64,000 nt of DNA from Escherichia virus TH15. The position numbers and the translations under genes are program-made. Of the stretch, positions 1,541 to 54,382 are shown piece after piece. The first letter of the stretch is position 1. Every line of letters starts with the position of its first letter. The notes under the pieces are model-generated. The model was not told the origin of the DNA and did no database searches. It saw only the letters and a list, made by a program, of their open reading frames with translations. The stretch lies in sequence record MT446392.1. One strand, 5' to 3'.

Positions 1541-1571
1541 AAGCCCCTCCCGAAAGGTTGGGGCTTTTTTA
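1541..1571 (+). terminator. rho-independent terminator after tRNA cluster
   Basis: GC stem AGCCCC/GGGGCT then T6. Confidence 0.6.
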
Positions 1572-1577
1572 TAAATA
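1570..1577 (+). promoter_or_regulatory. T4-type late promoter TATAAATA
   Basis: Exact TATAAATA ~27 nt upstream of ATG 1604. Confidence 0.45.
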
Positions 1578-1603: not shown

Positions 1604-2158
1604 ATGAAACTTTTAAAATATCTAAGCTGGATTCTGTTAGTGCCACTGGATTTCATTTCAATGATTCTGGCTGTTATCCTTGCACCATTTGTAGTGCCGT
1701 TCCATAACAAAAAGACTGGTAAGCTTCCGTTCGGATTTGACTGGATGATGACATACGATAATCCAATTGATGGTGACCGTGGTCATGTTAAACGTTGGGA
1801 AAAAATCAGAAAATGGCCGTTAGGTGTTTACTTCCAGCGAGTGGCCTGGCTCTGGCGAAATAAAGCCTACAATTTTGCTTATCATAAGCTGGGTCGCGAT
1901 TGCGATTCTAAATTCCATTATAAAGGTAATCCTGATGTTGAATCGGGCTCCCCGGATAAAGCTCACCATGGCTGGCTCTGGATGTGGAATGATAATGCAT
2001 GGGGCGTGTTCGCTTCCGTACCTTATCTTAAAGTTGGTGGAATCACCTTTTATCTGCGCGTGTATTGCGGTTGGAAGCTCAAAAGTCTTCTGTCCCGTCC
2101 TATCCCGAAAGCTATGTTAGCCTTTCATATCAATCCCTTCCGTTTTTATAAGAACTAA
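1604..2158 (+). CDS. hypothetical membrane-anchored protein
   Basis: 184-aa ORF, N-terminal hydrophobic helix, AAGGAAA SD. Confidence 0.6.
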   Translation: MKLLKYLSWILLVPLDFISMILAVILAPFVVPFHNKKTGKLPFGFDWMMTYDNPIDGDRGHVKRWEKIRKWPLGVYFQRVAWLWRNKAYNFAYHKLGRDCDSKFHYKGNPDVESGSPDKAHHGWLWMWNDNAWGVFASVPYLKVGGITFYLRVYCGWKLKSLLSRPIPKAMLAFHINPFRFYKN

Positions 2159-11881: not shown

Positions 11882-12145
11882 ATGAAAACTTATCAAGAAT
11901 TTATTACTGAATCTGCCAAAGCTCCTGCTGGTTCCTTTAAAGTCCGTGCCTTCGCTGGTGATGCTGAAGACTTTGGCTCACTGAAGCGCAACGGTTATTC
12001 TTTCTTTGGTGGTGATGGTAAAGAAATTGTTACCTATGCAAAACGTCGCGAAATCGCATTCGTGGTTGCTGGTAAGAAAGTATCCCCAGAAGATATTGAA
12101 GTTGACTTTGAGACCTTTGGTATTGTTTCTGGCGGTAAAGCTTAA
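11882..12145 (+). CDS. internal-protein-like (capsid targeting sequence)
   Basis: Starts MKTYQEFITE, matching the T4 internal-protein capsid targeting sequence MKTYQEFIAE. Confidence 0.6.
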   Translation: MKTYQEFITESAKAPAGSFKVRAFAGDAEDFGSLKRNGYSFFGGDGKEIVTYAKRREIAFVVAGKKVSPEDIEVDFETFGIVSGGKA

Positions 12146-12147
12146 CT

Positions 12148-12176
12148 GTTTACTTTATGATGGGATAGTGTATAAT
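12148..12176 (+). promoter_or_regulatory. T4-type early promoter overlapping the next start codon
   Basis: -35 GTTTACT, 16-nt spacer, -10 TATAAT whose last bases form the ATG at 12175. Confidence 0.55.
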
Positions 12177-12474
12177 GTTAACTTATCAAGAATTTATCAC
12201 AGAAGCCAAAGTTCCTAAAGCATTTCAAATTGGGGTTCAAGGCAATTTAGACCAACAATATGTTGATGCTATTGTAGCAAGCCTCGGTAAACAAGGGGTG
12301 CAAGTGGATTTGGTTGATTTTACCAAAGGCAATACTTTTAATATTGTTACATCTAAAGGTTCTTTAGCTAAAGTTAAAAAGGCCTTTGGCGTAGCACAAG
12401 CATACGAAATCGACCATTCTGAATTCGAAAATAAAGGTCGCCAGAACACAATTAAAGGCTCTGGTTCTTTTTAA
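12175..12474 (+). CDS. internal-protein-like (capsid targeting sequence)
   Basis: Starts MLTYQEFITE; paralog of 11882..12145. Confidence 0.55.
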   Translation: MLTYQEFITEAKVPKAFQIGVQGNLDQQYVDAIVASLGKQGVQVDLVDFTKGNTFNIVTSKGSLAKVKKAFGVAQAYEIDHSEFENKGRQNTIKGSGSF

Positions 12475-17445: not shown

Positions 17446-17516
17446 CAGTTACTAACTAGTATTCCGCTATGTTAAGGCTGCAAAGCGTAATCATGACCAA
17501 CAATAAGGAGTCCTTT

Positions 17517-50368: not shown

Positions 50369-50662
50369 ATGAAAAAGTTATTAATCGCGGCAATTCTTAC
50401 CGTAGCATCATGTGGTACAGCTCCTGTAACCGCTGGACTTGATAAAGACCTTTGTGAGTGGTCTATGACTGCTGACCAGACTGATGTTGAACATCAGATT
50501 TATGCTGATATCATGAATATTACTAAACGTGACCGCCCAGATATGGTTAAAGAAGTATCTGACCAACTGGCTTCTGGCGACGTTATGCAGTATAACTATG
50601 TTCTGTATTGCGATGCTTCATTTGACAACAGCAAGATTGTTCAATGGGTTACAGGTGAATAA
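50369..50662 (+). CDS. putative lipoprotein
   Basis: Signal peptide with lipobox TVASC. Confidence 0.55.
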   Translation: MKKLLIAAILTVASCGTAPVTAGLDKDLCEWSMTADQTDVEHQIYADIMNITKRDRPDMVKEVSDQLASGDVMQYNYVLYCDASFDNSKIVQWVTGE

Positions 50663-50663
50663 A

Positions 50664-51104
50664 ATGATTAACAGAAATTTAGTTATCAAAAAACTTCGTT
50701 GTAAAAATCAAAATGCACAGGCATACAGGATGTTTTGGAGCGACGACCCCATCCAATACCTGGGTTATTTTCTTGTTGATAGTGATAATAGAATTACGTT
50801 TGCTCATAAACTTCTTAACAAAGAATTAAACCATTGGCAAGAACTTATTGCGGTCAAGTCTAAATTATTTTCGCGCAATACAATGCACCAATTGGTTTAT
50901 TTTTTCGCTGATGGTATTCCTGACAAGGTTGAATTTGATGGGTTTGAATTTAAAGACATCAACCCTGATAATGAATTGAATGACAGTATTGTTAATATGG
51001 GTATCCCGGGTAAGTACATCAAAAACAGTCTTTTGAAACTTCTGGAAACTCCTGTATATTCAGTTGACGACCAAATTTTTAATGCCTTCATGAAGCGAGA
51101 TTAA
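50664..51104 (+). CDS. hypothetical protein, C-terminal DDQIFNAFMKRD tail
   Basis: ATG 50664 after GGTGAATAAA; track ATG 50529 overlaps upstream gene. Confidence 0.55.
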   Translation: MINRNLVIKKLRCKNQNAQAYRMFWSDDPIQYLGYFLVDSDNRITFAHKLLNKELNHWQELIAVKSKLFSRNTMHQLVYFFADGIPDKVEFDGFEFKDINPDNELNDSIVNMGIPGKYIKNSLLKLLETPVYSVDDQIFNAFMKRD

Positions 51105-51105
51105 T

Positions 51106-51465
51106 ATGAGTTATTATAATTTTCTGAATTTTGAACTGGTGAGCAATAATGATGGTAATGCCCGTTATGAATTTCGTGAGCCTCGGTTTAATCAGGCGAT
51201 TGGTTATATTATCGTTAAAGATGATGTTATCATAAAGGCTCGCTCATTTATGGTAATGAGTGGACCTTATGAAGATACTCGTGGCTATCCATTTGATAAA
51301 AAGAATGTACGCGATTGTGCAGCATGGATAACCGGAAACCCTGAAATTGGGGTCATGATATCTACTGAAGCAAATGACATTCTGGAAGGGGCTTGGGTTA
51401 AAGCTCAAGAACTGCCTACTGATATTGATGACCAGATTTTTAATGCCTTCATGAAGCGAGGTTAA
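51106..51465 (+). CDS. hypothetical protein, C-terminal DDQIFNAFMKRG tail
   Basis: 119 aa; last 12 codons repeat those of previous gene. Confidence 0.55.
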   Translation: MSYYNFLNFELVSNNDGNARYEFREPRFNQAIGYIIVKDDVIIKARSFMVMSGPYEDTRGYPFDKKNVRDCAAWITGNPEIGVMISTEANDILEGAWVKAQELPTDIDDQIFNAFMKRG

Positions 51466-51466
51466 T

Positions 51467-51688
51467 ATGTTTGTTTTGACCCAATTCTCTAAAGCAATAT
51501 ATAGTTACTCTTGTCAGTGGGAAGTCTTTATTGATACTCCTTCGCCTAAGTATGGTGTTTTTGGACGAGTAACTACACAAGCTTACGTTGCGCGACCGAC
51601 TAAACGTCAGATTCGTAAGCTTAAAAAGGCACATCGTCAATTGATTAAAAGAAGGGAACAATATGAGTGCAATGTGTACGGGCTCTAA
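51467..51688 (+). CDS. hypothetical basic protein
   Basis: 73-aa ORF. Confidence 0.45.
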   Translation: MFVLTQFSKAIYSYSCQWEVFIDTPSPKYGVFGRVTTQAYVARPTKRQIRKLKKAHRQLIKRREQYECNVYGL

Positions 51689-51854
51689 GATTTCGGTCTT
51701 CCAGATTTTTGAAGAATATGAAATCGTGTCGCAAGACCAAGAAGCAATCCATGTTATCGCTGATGATGGTGTTACCTGGATTATTCCATTGTATCATGAA
51801 GACACTTATGAAGTGACTGATGCAAATGGTGATAAAGCTATCTTCGTTGTATAA
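51663..51854 (+). CDS. hypothetical protein
   Basis: 63-aa ORF. Confidence 0.4.
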   Translation: MSAMCTGSKISVFQIFEEYEIVSQDQEAIHVIADDGVTWIIPLYHEDTYEVTDANGDKAIFVV

Positions 51855-51857
51855 ATA
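51850..51857 (+). promoter_or_regulatory. T4-type late promoter TATAAATA
   Basis: Exact TATAAATA 17 nt upstream of ATG 51874. Confidence 0.45.
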
Positions 51858-51873
51858 GCGGAAAGGGGGTGTT

Positions 51874-52041
51874 ATGAAAACATTCAAAGATTTTATAAAC
51901 GAAGATATGGTTGCAGGTGATGCAGGTGGAAACCCAACTAATATCGCAACAGGTACCACTTCCGGGGCAGTTGTCAATAAAGGCCCTGAACAAATCCCAT
52001 CAAAAAAGCGTAAGAATAAAGACGATAAACCTACAGTATAA
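51874..52041 (+). CDS. small protein with capsid-targeting-like N-terminus
   Basis: 55 aa starting MKTFKDFINED after GGAAAGGGGG SD; below track cutoff. Confidence 0.4.
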   Translation: MKTFKDFINEDMVAGDAGGNPTNIATGTTSGAVVNKGPEQIPSKKRKNKDDKPTV

Positions 52042-52058
52042 TGGTCCTTCGGGGCCAT
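52041..52058 (+). terminator. GC hairpin with UUCG loop
   Basis: Stem ATGGTCC/GGGCCAT. Confidence 0.4.
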
Positions 52059-52073
52059 TGAAATGAGGAAACT

Positions 52074-53102
52074 ATGTCATATATTGATAGAGAATTTGCA
52101 ATCAGAGCTTTATCGTATCAACCACGTTATAGAGAAGTCACCGGGAGCACATTTAAGGCAAACTGTCGTTGTAAGGTTTGCGGTGACTCCCAGAAAGATT
52201 CACACAAGGCCCGATTCTGGGCGTATACCAATCCGTCTGATGGTGCGGTTTACGTGAAATGTTTTAACTGTGACTACTCCACGCATATAAGCAAATACAT
52301 AAAAGAGTTTGAGCCGGATTTGCACCGGGAATATATGGTTGAGAAGTACAAGGAAAACGCCTTCGGTCGACAACGTAATGAAGTTGCAGAAGCTCCGAAA
52401 GAACAAGAAAAAACTCCGGTTATTGAAGAGCTTGCTTTTTGCGAAAGAATCGATACTTTACCAGAAGAGCATCCGATAGTTAAGTATGTAAAAAGTCGGT
52501 GTATTCCGAGCAATGTTTGGAACCGGTTATGGTTTACAAACAAATGGCCTGCATTAGTTAACTCCGTTAATCCTGGGACGTATAAGAATGAAACGAATGA
52601 ACCACGCTTGGTTATTCCTATCTTCAACGGCAAAAAAGAAATCGAATCTTTCCAAGGACGAGCTCTTCGCAAAGATGCACCACAAAAATATATCACAATC
52701 AAAGCTCACCCAGAAGCTTCCAAAGTCTACGGAGTAGACAAGATTGATGAGCGCAAACGTGTGTGGGTAATGGAAGGTCCGATTGATAGTTTGTTTATCC
52801 CTAACAGCATTGCGATAACTGGCGGCACATTGTCATTGGAAGCGGTTCCTTATCCAGAAACCAGAGTATGGGTAATGGACAACGAGCCAAGACATCCTGA
52901 TACGATTAAACGTATGAAGAAGCTCGTTGAGGCTGGTGAAGCCGTTATGTTCTGGGATAATGCGCCATGGCATACAAAAGACATAAATGAGATGGTTAAA
53001 TCAGAAGGGGCAACCCCTGAACAAATCGAATCATATATGGCTGATAACGTTGCCCAAGGGTTGATGGCAAGAATGCGACTTTCGAAGTACGCAAAAGTTT
53101 AG
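52074..53102 (+). CDS. 61: DNA primase gp61
   Basis: 342 aa; zinc-binding CRCKVCGD...CFNCDY, C-terminal TOPRIM; matches T4 gp61. Confidence 0.9.
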   Translation: MSYIDREFAIRALSYQPRYREVTGSTFKANCRCKVCGDSQKDSHKARFWAYTNPSDGAVYVKCFNCDYSTHISKYIKEFEPDLHREYMVEKYKENAFGRQRNEVAEAPKEQEKTPVIEELAFCERIDTLPEEHPIVKYVKSRCIPSNVWNRLWFTNKWPALVNSVNPGTYKNETNEPRLVIPIFNGKKEIESFQGRALRKDAPQKYITIKAHPEASKVYGVDKIDERKRVWVMEGPIDSLFIPNSIAITGGTLSLEAVPYPETRVWVMDNEPRHPDTIKRMKKLVEAGEAVMFWDNAPWHTKDINEMVKSEGATPEQIESYMADNVAQGLMARMRLSKYAKV

Positions 53103-54148: not shown

Positions 54149-54382
54149 ATGGGTGGTTTCGTTAATATCAAAACCTTTACGCATGCAGCTGGTGAAGGTA
54201 AAGAAGTTAAAGGTACCGAGGTTTCGGTTCCGTTTGAAATCTATTCTAATGCGCATCGTATTGCTAATGCTCATTATCAGACTTTCCCTTCGGCGGTAGC
54301 GGCCTACTCAACTGTGGTCACTGATGCTGCTGACTGGAAGACCAAAAACGAGGCAATGTTTACGCCGACTGCTATTGTTTAA
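54149..54382 (+). CDS. soc: small outer capsid protein Soc
   Basis: GFVNIKTF...AHYQTFPS..AAYSTV matches T4 Soc. Confidence 0.8.
   Translation: MGGFVNIKTFTHAAGEGKEVKGTEVSVPFEIYSNAHRIANAHYQTFPSAVAAYSTVVTDAADWKTKNEAMFTPTAIV

What the first reader, a model, noticed from the sequence alone, without database searches (positions are those of the whole stretch)
51850..52041. Late-promoter-driven micro-protein with a capsid-targeting-like N-terminus
An exact T4 late promoter TATAAATA (51850..51857) precedes a 55-aa ORF with a GGAAAGGGGG Shine-Dalgarno that begins MKTFKDFINED, resembling MKTYQEFIAE. The remainder is Gly/Thr/Lys-rich and ends in a basic patch. This could be a small packaged internal peptide.
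Basis: inference. Interest (0 to 1): 0.45.

Follow-up and report, generated by a model that had tools for sequence, protein, structure and literature searches.

The report
Stand-alone capsid N-terminus copy, gene 61.1
The 55-residue ORF is a real, strongly conserved T4-family gene (61.1, function unknown) that turns out to be a free-standing copy of the major capsid protein's maturation-cleavage site and N-terminal 'fist', preceded in this phage lineage by a conserved late promoter, so it is probably a small head-assembly peptide cut by the prohead protease, although nobody has yet looked for it in particles.

Summary
The ORF 51874..52041 is the ortholog of T4 gene 61.1 (PHROG 1823, E 1e-32) and lies directly upstream of primase gene 61.

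New here:
- Residues 2-46 are 42-46% identical to major capsid protein gp23 residues 55/57-99/101. This stretch covers the gp21 cleavage site (LTE|A) and the N-fist/N-arm of mature gp23*.
- gp23 is the only match in a search of all PDB sequences (E 5e-5).
- A hydrophobic-x-Glu motif lies at the homologous position in 154 of 159 family members.
- The core is under strong purifying selection (dN/dS 0.02-0.24).
- Exact TATAAATA lies 13-32 nt upstream of the start codon in six divergent lineages with different upstream genes. T4 itself lacks it.
- All four TATAAATA in the window sit just upstream of + strand genes, including soc and rI.
- A 150-160 aa long form with an extra N-terminal helical domain occupies the same locus from KVP40-like phages to Salmonella and Yersinia phages.

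In T4, 61.1 is transcribed early, the protein was not detected, and the gene is dispensable.

The best reading is a prohead-associated, gp21-processed peptide. This is an inference and has not been shown.

The parts
51850..51857 (+). Exact T4-type late promoter motif TATAAATA. It contains the stop codon (51852..51854) of the upstream ORF. The predicted transcript start is near 51863, which would give a leader of about 11 nt.
   Evidence: It is conserved at -21 to -35 from the 61.1 start in VR7, L004-L009, L013/14, L017/18, L022 (TG1), L061 and L068, in different flanking sequence. The start site is inferred from the usual T4 late-promoter geometry and has not been mapped.
51860..51869 (+). Shine-Dalgarno-like GGAAAGGGGG, ending 4 nt before the ATG.
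   Evidence: Relatives have AGGAG or GAGG at the same place.
51874..52041 (+). Gene 61.1 ortholog, 55 aa (5.8 kDa, pI 9.2).
   Evidence: PHROG 1823 at E 1e-32. 98% identical to P0001. Annotated '61.1' in VR7 and SP18. dN/dS 0.02-0.24.
51874..51903 (+). Codons 1-10, MKTFKDFINE. This is a CTS-like decapeptide ending in the I-x-E prohead-protease motif. It aligns with gp23 residues 56-65 (..AFGSFLTE), which lie just before the gp23 cleavage site.
51904..51987 (+). Codons 11-38, DMVAGDAGGNPTNIATGTTSGAVVNKGP. This is a homolog of the N-fist and start of the N-arm of mature gp23* (AEIGGDHGYNATNIAAGQTSGAVTQIGP). It is the most conserved part of the family.
   Evidence: BLASTP E 2e-10 against T4 gp23 and 1e-9 against VR7 gp23. 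hhalign probability 91%. gp23 is the only match among all PDB sequences, E 5e-5. Invariant columns.
51988..52038 (+). Codons 39-55, a Lys/Arg-rich tail (EQIPSKKRKNKDDKPTV). A basic patch is conserved in the family. It aligns with gp23 ..AVMGMVRR.
52039..52060 (+). RNA hairpin with a 9-bp stem and UUCG loop. It includes the stop codon and has no T-run.
   Evidence: -16.8 kcal/mol, z -3.5. No terminator call. Relatives have hairpins of other sequences at the same place, some with a T-run.
51663..51854 (+). Upstream 63-aa ORF (PHROG 3249, like RB69 ORF033c). Its last sense codon and stop form part of TATAAATA. Context only.
52074..53102 (+). Gene 61, DNA primase. It is the invariant downstream neighbour of both short and long 61.1 forms. 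Context only.

Best explanation
The ORF encodes gp61.1, a small protein conserved across the T4 family. [quoted passage not shown]

It has three parts:
1. A decapeptide that resembles both the internal-protein capsid targeting sequence and the last residues of the gp23 propeptide. It ends in the I/L-x-E site used by the prohead protease gp21.
2. About 28 residues homologous to the N-fist and start of the N-arm of mature gp23*.
3. A lysine-rich tail.

Proposed mechanism:
- In this phage the gene is read through from early promoters. Late in infection it is also transcribed from its own TATAAATA promoter.
- The disordered peptide associates with the assembling prohead through the same contacts that the gp23 N-terminal region makes inside the unexpanded prohead (scaffolding core).
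- gp21 cuts it after Glu10.
- This leaves a 45-residue basic peptide (4.6 kDa, pI 9.3). The peptide either stays with the head and DNA or modulates gp23 N-terminal contacts during maturation.

What is shown and what is inferred:
- Shown: gene identity, homology to gp23, conservation of the cleavage-type motif, purifying selection, and conservation of the promoter motif.
- Inferred: late transcription, prohead association, cleavage, and the fate and role of the product.
For: Identity and synteny.

Homology to gp23:
- 46% over 37 aa against T4 gp23 (E 6e-9).
- 44% over 45 aa for the window protein against T4 gp23 57-101 (E 2e-10).
- 42% against the near-cognate VR7 gp23 55-99 (E 1e-9), with hhalign probability 91%.
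- The family profile hits only gp23 among 177,635 PDB sequences.
- tblastn with a long-form member also hits gp23 genes in phage genomes.
- A KVP40-like pair reaches 23 of 37 identical residues.

Cleavage motif:
- Glu10 aligns with gp23 Glu65, the known gp21 site.
- 154 of 159 family members have hydrophobic-x-E zero or one residue before the core, and 128 of these have L or I.
- gp21 prefers I/LxE (PMC12991175). ITE and LTE sites in Alt are reported in PMC5694885.

CTS likeness: 6-8 of 10 positions. It is specific within the window, the only other matches being the two internal head protein genes.

What the gp23 region does: gp23* residues 66-105 are disordered and lie inside the unexpanded head, where they probably contact the scaffolding core. 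Head-length mutations map there. After expansion the region forms the N-fist and N-arm and part of the Soc binding site (PMC9546572 and PMC9958956).

Disorder: AlphaFold gives pLDDT below 50 for the module in the long form and pLDDT 62 with pTM 0.15 for the short form.

Late promoter:
- Exact TATAAATA is conserved in six lineages with three or more different upstream contexts.
- All four window copies precede + strand genes, including the head gene soc and the lysis-inhibition gene rI homolog, which I recall as late-expressed in T4.
- A hairpin or terminator follows the gene in most lineages, which would make a self-contained unit.

Selection: dN/dS 0.02-0.24.

Dispensability in T4 fits an accessory head component. 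By my recollection the internal proteins, Soc and Hoc are likewise non-essential.
Against: - No direct evidence places gp61.1 in proheads or virions. The T4 time-course proteomics did not detect it, and its T4 transcript is classed early.
- T4 and T6-type phages have TATGAATA instead, and no TATAAATA anywhere in the 41-61 cluster. Late-promoter drive is therefore not universal. However, T4 ipIII also has an early-type promoter and an 'early' transcript class, yet it is packaged.
- The predicted late leader is very short, about 11 nt here and 7-9 nt in JS98-like phages.
- The gene always sits in the replication cluster next to primase, not with head genes or the internal-protein locus.
- Unlike the internal proteins, its 'mature' part is highly conserved.
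- The hydrophobic-x-E motif and the N-terminal similarity could be kept for reasons other than cleavage, for example common ancestry with gp23.
- Some short forms lack any CTS likeness (L017/L018 begin MTLLEKYKQSLSE).
Confidence: 0.5

Rival explanations
1. Cytoplasmic mimic or decoy. gp61.1 is not packaged. It acts in the cytoplasm as a soluble copy of the gp23 cleavage junction. It could be a competitive substrate or buffer for free gp21 protease, whose activity is sensed by some CBASS CD-NTases through an LPE-containing disordered loop. Alternatively it could be a decoy for a host factor that recognises the gp23 N-terminus.
For: - The gene lies among small accessory genes between genes 41 and 61 (dmd, 61.4, sp, 61.2). 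From memory, several of these are counter-defence or exclusion factors in T4.
- The T4 transcript is early.
- The protein is disordered.
- It carries an exact copy of the natural gp21 site context.
- Host CBASS senses gp21 activity at I/LxE-type sites (PMC12991175).
- The gene is dispensable in laboratory hosts.
Against: - The family is conserved with fixed synteny across T4-like phages of many host genera: Vibrio, Aeromonas, Acinetobacter, Sinorhizobium and enterics (844 phage records). Counter-defence genes are usually patchy and fast-evolving, whereas this core has dN/dS 0.02-0.24.
- The conserved late promoter would be late for a pre-emptive decoy, although it does match the timing of gp21.
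- No PADLOC or defence-linked evidence was sought or found.
Confidence: 0.15
2. Assembly modulator that is not retained. gp61.1 competes with the gp23 N-terminal region for its partner (scaffold gp22, or neighbouring gp23 subunits) and tunes prohead nucleation, head length or expansion. It does not become a stable head component.
For: - It is homologous to exactly the gp23 segment where the head-length mutations A66D, A94V and G97S map, and which is thought to touch the scaffolding core.
- Late-promoter conservation.
- The unexpanded head has 14-17 A openings through which small cleaved peptides leave.
Against: - No head-morphology phenotype is known.
- T4 61.1 knock-down and insertion mutants are as fit as wild type.
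- With present data this cannot be told apart from the main explanation except by the fate of the product.
Confidence: 0.2
3. Replication-linked function. gp61.1 is an accessory of the primase-helicase (gp61/gp41), or its ORF mainly serves translational coupling into gene 61. On this view the similarity to gp23 is incidental to function.
For: - The gene is invariably placed immediately upstream of gene 61, and often right after gene 41, from KVP40-like phages to T4.
- In T4 the gene 61 start is 2 nt after the 61.1 stop.
- The basic tail could bind nucleic acid.
Against: - In most lineages a stable hairpin, sometimes with a T-run, and a 30-130 nt spacer separate 61.1 from gene 61. Coupling is therefore not general.
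- The protein sequence, not just the ORF, is under strong constraint.
- The constrained part is the gp23-like module.
- A late promoter is not expected for a primase cofactor.
- From memory, T4 primosome reconstitution has not required it. I did not verify this here.
Confidence: 0.1
4. Relic. The ORF is a decaying fragment left by a partial duplication of gene 23 and has no function of its own.
For: It is a short fragment homologous to an internal piece of a large gene. It is dispensable in T4.
Against: - Synonymous sites are saturated while the core is nearly invariant.
- Hundreds of intact copies exist in phages of many genera.
- The start, Shine-Dalgarno sequence, promoter motif and downstream hairpin are conserved.
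Confidence: 0.02

Closest known systems
T4 gp61.1 (NP_049649, UniProt P39228; PHROG 1823) and its long form (PHROG 2086; 'gp61.1' of KVP40, phi-pp2, Aeromonas phage 65, Yersinia phiR1-RT)
   Same: Orthologous. It is 72% identical to T4 gp61.1 over the full length. It has the same size, the same position immediately upstream of primase gene 61, the same three-part layout, and the same conserved core MVAGD..GG....I..G.T.G.V.NKGPE.
   Different: - The window lineage has an exact TATAAATA and a hairpin flanking the gene. T4 has neither.
- The upstream neighbour differs: an RB69 ORF033c-like ORF here, 61.2 in T4.
- Long forms carry an extra helical N-terminal domain of about 105 aa, with no PDB fold match.
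- The family has no described function.
T4 major capsid protein gp23, residues about 56-101: end of the propeptide, the gp21 site LTE65|A66, and the N-fist/N-arm of gp23* (PDB 6uzc, 7vs5, 5vf3)
   Same: Sequence homology of 42-46% over 37-45 residues without gaps. The Glu of the cleavage site and the Gly/Asp/Asn/Thr-Ser-Gly/Gly-Pro positions of the N-fist align.
   Different: The ORF has none of the HK97-fold body and gives no Pfam hit. The region after Gly-Pro is replaced by a Lys/Arg-rich tail. It is encoded about 85 kb away from the head genes in T4-type genomes.
T4 internal proteins IPI/IPII/IPIII and the polymorphic internal proteins, which carry the capsid targeting sequence MKTYQEFIAE (PHROG 2667; window genes at 11882 and 12175)
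   Same: A small basic protein with an N-terminal decapeptide matching the CTS at 6-8 of 10 positions and ending in I-x-E. In T4 the first 30 nt are 24/30 identical to ipIII.
   Different: - No homology beyond the decapeptide (no PHROG 2667 hit).
- The mature part is highly conserved rather than hypervariable.
- It is not in the internal-protein locus.
- Packaging is untested.
- The decapeptide also aligns with an internal segment of the long form (..IFKELPLFE|D), so it probably arose by truncation rather than by acquiring a CTS.
T4 late transcription units embedded in early regions, such as soc and rI
   Same: TATAAATA lies 16-31 nt upstream of the start codon on the coding strand and often overlaps the preceding stop codon.
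   Different: The gap to the ATG (16 nt) is shorter than at the other three window sites (23-31 nt). No transcript mapping exists.

Membership tests
T4 gp61.1 family (PHROG 1823) | Significant full-length sequence match to the family profile | tested here: met
   E 1e-32, residues 1-52 matching profile positions 1-52 of 54. 72% identical to T4 gp61.1.
T4 gp61.1 family (PHROG 1823) | Position immediately upstream of primase gene 61 on the same strand | tested here: met
   61.1 ends at 52041 and gene 61 starts at 52074. The order is the same in T4, VR7, TG1, KVP40-like and L061 loci.
CTS-bearing T4 internal head proteins (IPI-III and polymorphic internal proteins) | N-terminal capsid targeting sequence close to MKTYQEFIAE | tested here: inconclusive
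   6 of 10 positions here, 7 of 10 in T4, 8 of 10 in T6-type orthologs. The window's real internal head proteins score 8-9 of 10. How much divergence the CTS tolerates was not established here.
CTS-bearing T4 internal head proteins (IPI-III and polymorphic internal proteins) | gp21 cleavage motif (I/L-x-E) at the end of the targeting sequence | tested here: met
   I8-N9-E10. The motif is present in 154 of 159 family members. This is the sequence motif only; cleavage itself was not tested.
CTS-bearing T4 internal head proteins (IPI-III and polymorphic internal proteins) | Physical presence in the prohead core or virion, and injection with the DNA | not testable with these tools
   No proteomic record was found. 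The protein was not detected in the T4 infected-cell time course.
CTS-bearing T4 internal head proteins (IPI-III and polymorphic internal proteins) | Homology of the mature part to internal head protein families, or location in the hyperplastic internal-protein locus near gene e | tested here: not met
   No PHROG 2667 hit. The gene lies about 40 kb from the window's internal head protein genes. The mature part is conserved rather than polymorphic.
Major capsid protein gp23 (HK97 fold, Pfam Gp23) | HK97-fold body (P, A and I domains) | tested here: not met
   The protein has only 55 residues. No Pfam or NCBIfam hit at E up to 10. AlphaFold pTM 0.15.
Major capsid protein gp23 (HK97 fold, Pfam Gp23) | Propeptide/mature junction with the gp21 site, followed by the N-fist sequence | tested here: met
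   Ungapped alignment to gp23 57-101, E 2e-10. gp23 is the only PDB match.
T4-type late promoter (gp55/gp33/gp45-dependent) | TATAAATA on the coding strand shortly upstream of a gene | tested here: met
   51850..51857, 16 nt before the ATG.
T4-type late promoter (gp55/gp33/gp45-dependent) | Conservation of the motif in diverged relatives beyond the flanking sequence | tested here: met
   The exact motif is present in six lineages with different upstream genes. One- or two-mismatch versions (GATAAATA, CATAAATA, AATAAATA, TTAAATA, TATGAATA) occur in the others, including T4.
T4-type late promoter (gp55/gp33/gp45-dependent) | Mapped late, gp55-dependent transcript 5' end | not testable with these tools
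   No data exist for this phage. In T4, which lacks the motif here, the transcript is classed early.
Intrinsic terminator (for the hairpin at 52039..52060) | G+C-rich hairpin followed by a T-run | tested here: not met
   The hairpin is present but no T-run follows, and the scan found 0 terminators. Some relatives do have the T-run.

The most novel reading that the evidence does not exclude
gp61.1 is a detached piece of the capsid protein that is used in trans. After gp21 removes its first ten residues, the free N-fist-like peptide takes up N-fist-type contacts, or inner-surface scaffold-type contacts, at lattice positions where no gp23 N-terminus is available. Such positions would lie next to the gp24 vertices or the portal. 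There it would act as a separately encoded 'cement' or plug. This could also account for some of the unassigned density reported under the vertex protein in the expanded T4 head (PMC9546572). A virus encoding a stand-alone copy of its own capsid protein's N-terminal arm as a structural accessory would be a new kind of head component.
Probability: 0.1. Interest if true: 0.8.

Novelty: new variant of a known kind. Interest (0 to 1): 0.5.

Why it matters
T4 head assembly is one of the best-charted assembly pathways in virology, and its parts list is regarded as essentially complete. This gene is small and conserved from KVP40-like vibriophages to T4, and is found in at least 844 phage records. 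It copies the exact gp23 segment that is cut by the prohead protease, contacts the scaffold, carries head-length mutations, and later forms the N-fist and part of the Soc binding site.

If it is a prohead-targeted substrate, several things follow:
- It adds a component to that parts list.
- It offers a natural minimal model for how gp21 and the scaffolding core recognise the gp23 N-terminus.
- It links the internal-protein targeting sequence to the gp23 propeptide junction.
- It may supply a second short tag for loading cargo into T4-based nanoparticles.

If instead it acts in the cytoplasm as a gp21-site mimic, it bears on the newly described immune sensing of phage protease activity. Either way the hypothesis is directly testable with standard T4 tools.

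Tried and rejected
- Pfam and NCBIfam scans of the window and T4 proteins at E up to 10 gave no hits.
- A PDB Foldseek search with the long-form model gave nothing significant.
- A BFVD search returned only uncharacterised viral proteins.
- The profile search of 1.84 billion representatives returned only family members, short, long and about 250 aa, plus one repetitive 1126-aa protein that I treat as spurious. None has a known function.
- Literature searches for gp61.1 or gene 61.1 found only gene lists.
- I tested whether 61.1 co-varies with its cognate gp23. A small identity matrix was inconclusive: the KVP40-like pair is closest at 23/39, but that gp23 is simply nearer the family consensus. 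I do not claim co-evolution.
- I considered TATAAT at 52037..52042 as a sigma-70 or middle promoter for gene 61. There is no acceptable -35 element or MotA box, and the scan did not call it. This is left open.
- I considered the hairpin as an intrinsic terminator. There is no T-run in this phage.
- I considered the antisense 137-aa ORF 51645..52058. It matches no family, and the + frame is the one under selection.
- I tried to retrieve the coordinates of the Gol peptide of gp23, which triggers the Lit protease, to test for overlap. The paper is not held. From memory, Gol lies just C-terminal to the region copied in 61.1, but this is unverified.
- The raw count of TATAAATA is at chance. Only its placement and conservation carry weight.
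Full report
**1. Observation**

- TATAAATA is at 51850..51857.
- GGAAAGGGGG is at 51860..51869.
- The ATG is at 51874 and the TAA at 52039..52041.

The product is MKTFKDFINEDMVAGDAGGNPTNIATGTTSGAVVNKGPEQIPSKKRKNKDDKPTV (55 aa, 5.8 kDa, pI 9.2). The stop codon of the upstream 63-aa ORF (51663..51854) lies inside the TATAAATA.

The number of exact TATAAATA in the window is at chance: 4 found against 4.98 expected. With one mismatch it is 108 against 121 expected. The placement, however, is not random. All four copies are on the + strand and lie 16-31 nt upstream of a + strand start codon. Those starts belong to:
- a 184-aa PHROG 2143 protein at 1604;
- the rI lysis-inhibition homolog at 17469;
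- the ORF in question;
- soc at 54149.

With about 4% of placements qualifying, four of four has a chance of about 3e-6.

**2. Identity**

The window is from a T4-like coliphage of the VR7/SP18 group. This stretch is 98.5% identical to phage TH54 and 93.6% identical to VR7, a Gaprivervirus.

The ORF is the ortholog of T4 gene 61.1:
- It matches PHROG 1823 at E 1e-32.
- It is 72% identical to T4 gp61.1, MKTFKEFIKEDMVAGDSGGNPENISIGTTSGAVVNKGPEQIPKKKKEESKEKEE.
- It lies directly upstream of primase gene 61 (52074..53102), as in T4.

It is a real coding gene. Across eight diverged orthologs the 29-codon core has dN of 0.03-0.2 while synonymous sites are at or near saturation, giving dN/dS of 0.02-0.24. 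The 137-aa antisense ORF matches nothing.

**3.

Some database entries call relatives 'major capsid domain-containing protein'. Direct comparison explains why.

| Comparison | Region of gp23 | Identity | E-value |
|---|---|---|---|
| T4 gp61.1 residues 2-38 vs T4 gp23 | 57-93 | 46% | 6e-9 |
| Window protein residues 2-46 vs T4 gp23 | 57-101 | 44% | 2e-10 |
| Window protein vs VR7 gp23 (near-cognate) | 55-99 | 42% | 1e-9 |

The alignments shown are ungapped. The profile-to-sequence comparison gave 91% probability. A profile of the family searched against all 177,635 distinct PDB sequences returns only T4 gp23 (6uzc and others, residues 58-94, E 5e-5) and nothing else at E up to 1. tblastn with a long-form relative also picks up gp23 genes in phage genomes.

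The aligned gp23 segment is ..AFGSFLTE65|A66EIGGDHGYNATNIAAGQTSGAVTQIGPAVMGMVRR. It comprises:
- the last residues of the 65-residue propeptide;
- the site cut by the prohead protease gp21;
- the '25-residue N-fist' and the start of the N-arm of mature gp23* (PMC9958956; PMC9546572).

According to those structural papers:
- gp23* residues 66-105 are disordered and located inside the unexpanded head.
- They probably contact the scaffolding core.
- They carry the head-length mutations A66D, A94V and G97S.
- On expansion they move to the outer surface. There the N-fist contacts four subunits and helps form the Soc binding site.

**4. The cleavage-type motif**

Glu10 of the ORF aligns with gp23 Glu65. 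The motif I8-N9-E10 fits the I/L-x-E preference of gp21 (PMC12991175; ITE and LTE sites in Alt, PMC5694885).

Among 159 family members with a recognisable core, 154 have hydrophobic-x-Glu zero or one residue before the core. The hydrophobic residue is L in 101, I in 27, M in 13, F in 7, V in 5 and A in 1. This holds in short forms with quite different N-termini, such as MTLLEKYKQSLSE|MVAGD, and in all long forms.

**5. The CTS resemblance**

T4 ipII and ipIII both begin MKTYQEFIAE. Matches to this sequence are:

| Protein | Positions matching (of 10) |
|---|---|
| Window ORF (61.1) | 6 |
| T4 gp61.1 | 7 |
| T6-type gp61.1 (MKTYKEFIKE) | 8 |

In the window only two other ORFs reach 5 of 10. They are the true internal head protein genes at 11882 (MKTYQEFITE) and 12175 (MLTYQEFITE), both PHROG 2667. 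The resemblance is therefore specific.

The same decapeptide also aligns with gp23 56-65 (aromatic-x-x-F-[IL]-x-E) and with an internal segment of the long form (..EIFKELPLFE|DMVAGD). The short form therefore looks like an N-terminal truncation of the long form. Its CTS likeness may reflect a shared propeptide-junction ancestry rather than acquisition of an internal-protein tag.

**6. Family breadth and the long form**

An exhaustive profile search found 52 cluster representatives at 50% identity: short forms (50-70 aa), long forms (130-165 aa) and a few of about 250 aa.

The long form has these properties:
- It corresponds to PHROG 2086.
- It has a conserved N-terminal domain..YAYKFIRLMQKPFTEWxAY..GIID..G.VLKRP.T.EEK..YT.FH...
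- AlphaFold predicts this domain as a confident helical domain (pLDDT about 90 for residues 20-60). The gp23-like module is disordered (pLDDT below 50).
- It has no PDB fold match.

Long forms occupy the same locus upstream of gene 61 in:
- JM10-like coliphages (L016);
- Salmonella S16-like phages;
- Yersinia TG1;
- Serratia and Citrobacter phages;
- KVP40/phi-pp2 (159-aa 'gp61.1');
- a marine-type contig (L061).

tblastn finds the family in 844 phage records from at least ten host genera. The short form folded alone is of low confidence (pLDDT 62, pTM 0.15), with a short helix at residues 4-8.

**7. The promoter and the transcription unit**

Exact TATAAATA lies 13-32 nt upstream of the start codon in the following lineages:
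- the window/VR7 lineage;
- JS98-like phages (L006-L009, L026, L065, L068);
- the L013/L014/L075 lineage;
- L017 and L018;
- Yersinia TG1 (L022);
- L061.

The motif is embedded in unrelated flanking sequence and follows at least three different upstream genes. The codon before the stop varies (GTA, ATA, CTA, TTA) while the motif is kept. Other lineages carry near-matches at the same place: GATAAATA, CATAAATA, AATAAATA and TTAAATA. T4 and T6-type phages have TATGAATA. T4 has no TATAAATA on either strand between positions 16.5 and 22.5 kb.

Directly after the stop, most lineages have a stable hairpin. Here it is 52039..52060, with a 9-bp stem and UUCG loop (-16.8 kcal/mol, z -3.5). Its sequence differs between lineages, and in some a T-run follows. 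Here there is no T-run and no terminator was called. The anatomy is that of a small self-contained late unit. With the usual late-promoter geometry (from general knowledge of T4 late promoters) the leader would be only about 11 nt, which is short.

**8. Experimental knowledge about T4 61.1**

- In a time-resolved omics study the transcript is classed 'early' and the protein was not detected. ipII and ipIII are also 'early' transcripts with 'late' proteins (PMC9697503, Table S2).
- T4 ipIII has an early-type promoter and no TATAAATA. Lack of a late promoter in T4 therefore does not argue against packaging.
- CRISPRi-ART knock-down of 61.1 gave no fitness effect ('Not Fit', PMC11879866 supplement).
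- HIDEN-SEQ scored it non-essential, with 13 of 13 sites hit (10.1101/2025.11.20.689424 supplement).
- I found no functional study and no virion-proteome record.

**9. Interpretation**

Firmly shown:
- the gene is real;
- it is 61.1;
- it is a paralog of the gp23 propeptide junction and N-fist;
- the protease-type motif, the core and, in many lineages, the late-promoter motif are conserved.

The most economical mechanism is as follows. The disordered peptide uses the same contacts as the gp23 N-terminal region to join the assembling prohead. gp21 cuts it after Glu10 (or after the equivalent Glu in long forms, releasing the N-terminal domain). This leaves a 45-residue basic peptide (4.6 kDa, pI 9.3). 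Whether that peptide stays in the head, leaves through the capsomer openings, or takes up N-fist-like contacts cannot be decided here. I give this head-associated reading about 0.5.

The rivals are:
- an assembly modulator that is not retained (0.2);
- a cytoplasmic mimic or decoy of the gp21 site or of the gp23 N-terminus, topical because CBASS CD-NTases sense gp21 activity (0.15);
- a primase-linked role suggested by the invariant synteny (0.1);
- a relic (0.02, contradicted by selection).

**10. Comparison with known systems, and novelty**

It is a member of the gp61.1 family (criteria met). It is not a capsid protein, because it lacks the HK97 body. It is not a member of the internal-protein families: the mature part has no homology to them, the locus is wrong, and it is conserved rather than polymorphic. 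It may still work like the internal proteins as regards targeting and processing.

The gene itself is annotated in many genomes. Its similarity to gp23 surfaces only in automated names. I found no paper that describes the similarity or any function. I rate it a new variant of a known kind: a prohead-protease substrate or targeted head peptide built from a detached capsid-protein N-terminus. Interest is moderate (0.5). It would be an unexpected addition to a very well-studied assembly pathway and is easy to test, but every functional step is still inferred and the gene is dispensable in the laboratory.

Noticed in passing
window 52037..52060 (and the same position in L006-L016, L026-L077): The stop codon of 61.1 is embedded in TATAAT (TATGAT in some relatives) and is followed at once by a hairpin. 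The hairpin sequence differs between lineages: GGTCCTTCGGGGCC here, GGCTCTATTAATTTAGAGCC, GGCCTTAGAAATAAGGCC and GGCTCTCATATCGAGAGCC+TTTTT elsewhere. T4-type phages lack it. It could be a 3' end or stability element for a late 61.1 RNA, or a 5' element of a gene 61 transcript.
   Followed up: partly
window 11882..12145 and 12175..12474: Two adjacent internal head protein genes (PHROG 2667) carry targeting sequences MKTYQEFITE and MLTYQEFITE. The second starts ML rather than MK. Upstream there is a TATAAT-type (early-like) element, not TATAAATA.
   Followed up: partly
window 50529..51104 and 51106..51465: Two tandem ORFs end in the same motif, DDQIFNAFMKR(D/G), which is also the C-terminus of T4 gp61.2 (..DDQIFNAFMNRG). 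They look like tandem 61.2-like paralogs.
   Followed up: no
L019 2989..3186 and L020 3001..3186: Contigs that do not look T4-like encode 61-65 aa proteins with the same layout as 61.1 (MK[ST]FK[DQ]F..ED, GPTNV.SG, GEPGV, KKRK). They sit next to endolysin and spanin genes. Neighbouring ORFs also begin MKTFKQL.. and MFNFREFLNEG... The module may therefore be used outside the T4 family.
   Followed up: partly
L061 1028..1765 (also P0035, P0064, P0058): Versions of about 250 aa have an extra C-terminal domain after the basic patch. That domain begins MNEV..F.QF, another CTS-like start, as if a downstream gene had fused. L061 has TATAAATA at -32 and lies between helicase gene 41 and primase gene 61.
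   Followed up: partly
window 1570..1577 and 1604..2158: The fourth exact TATAAATA precedes a 184-aa hydrophobic-N-terminus protein of unknown function (PHROG 2143). By the same logic this protein is predicted to be late.
   Followed up: no
L021 3015..3497 versus L024 295..990: In the KVP40-like lineage the 61.1 module and a gp23 N-fist are 23 of 37 identical (EAVVAGDSGG..IASGETTGAVTNIGP against EAVVDGDHGS..IASGQTTGAVTNIGP). This is closer than the T4 pair. The two sequences come from different phages, and a small identity matrix did not establish co-evolution.
   Followed up: partly
L025 289..951 (Synechococcus phage S-RIM2 gp23): The cyanophage gp23 keeps the LTE site, but the following segment (TLQTTGYTGGDTATGPVAGFDP) lacks the N-fist motif shared by gp23 and 61.1 in enteric and Vibrio phages. 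Whether cyanophages also lack a 61.1 homolog was not checked.
   Followed up: no
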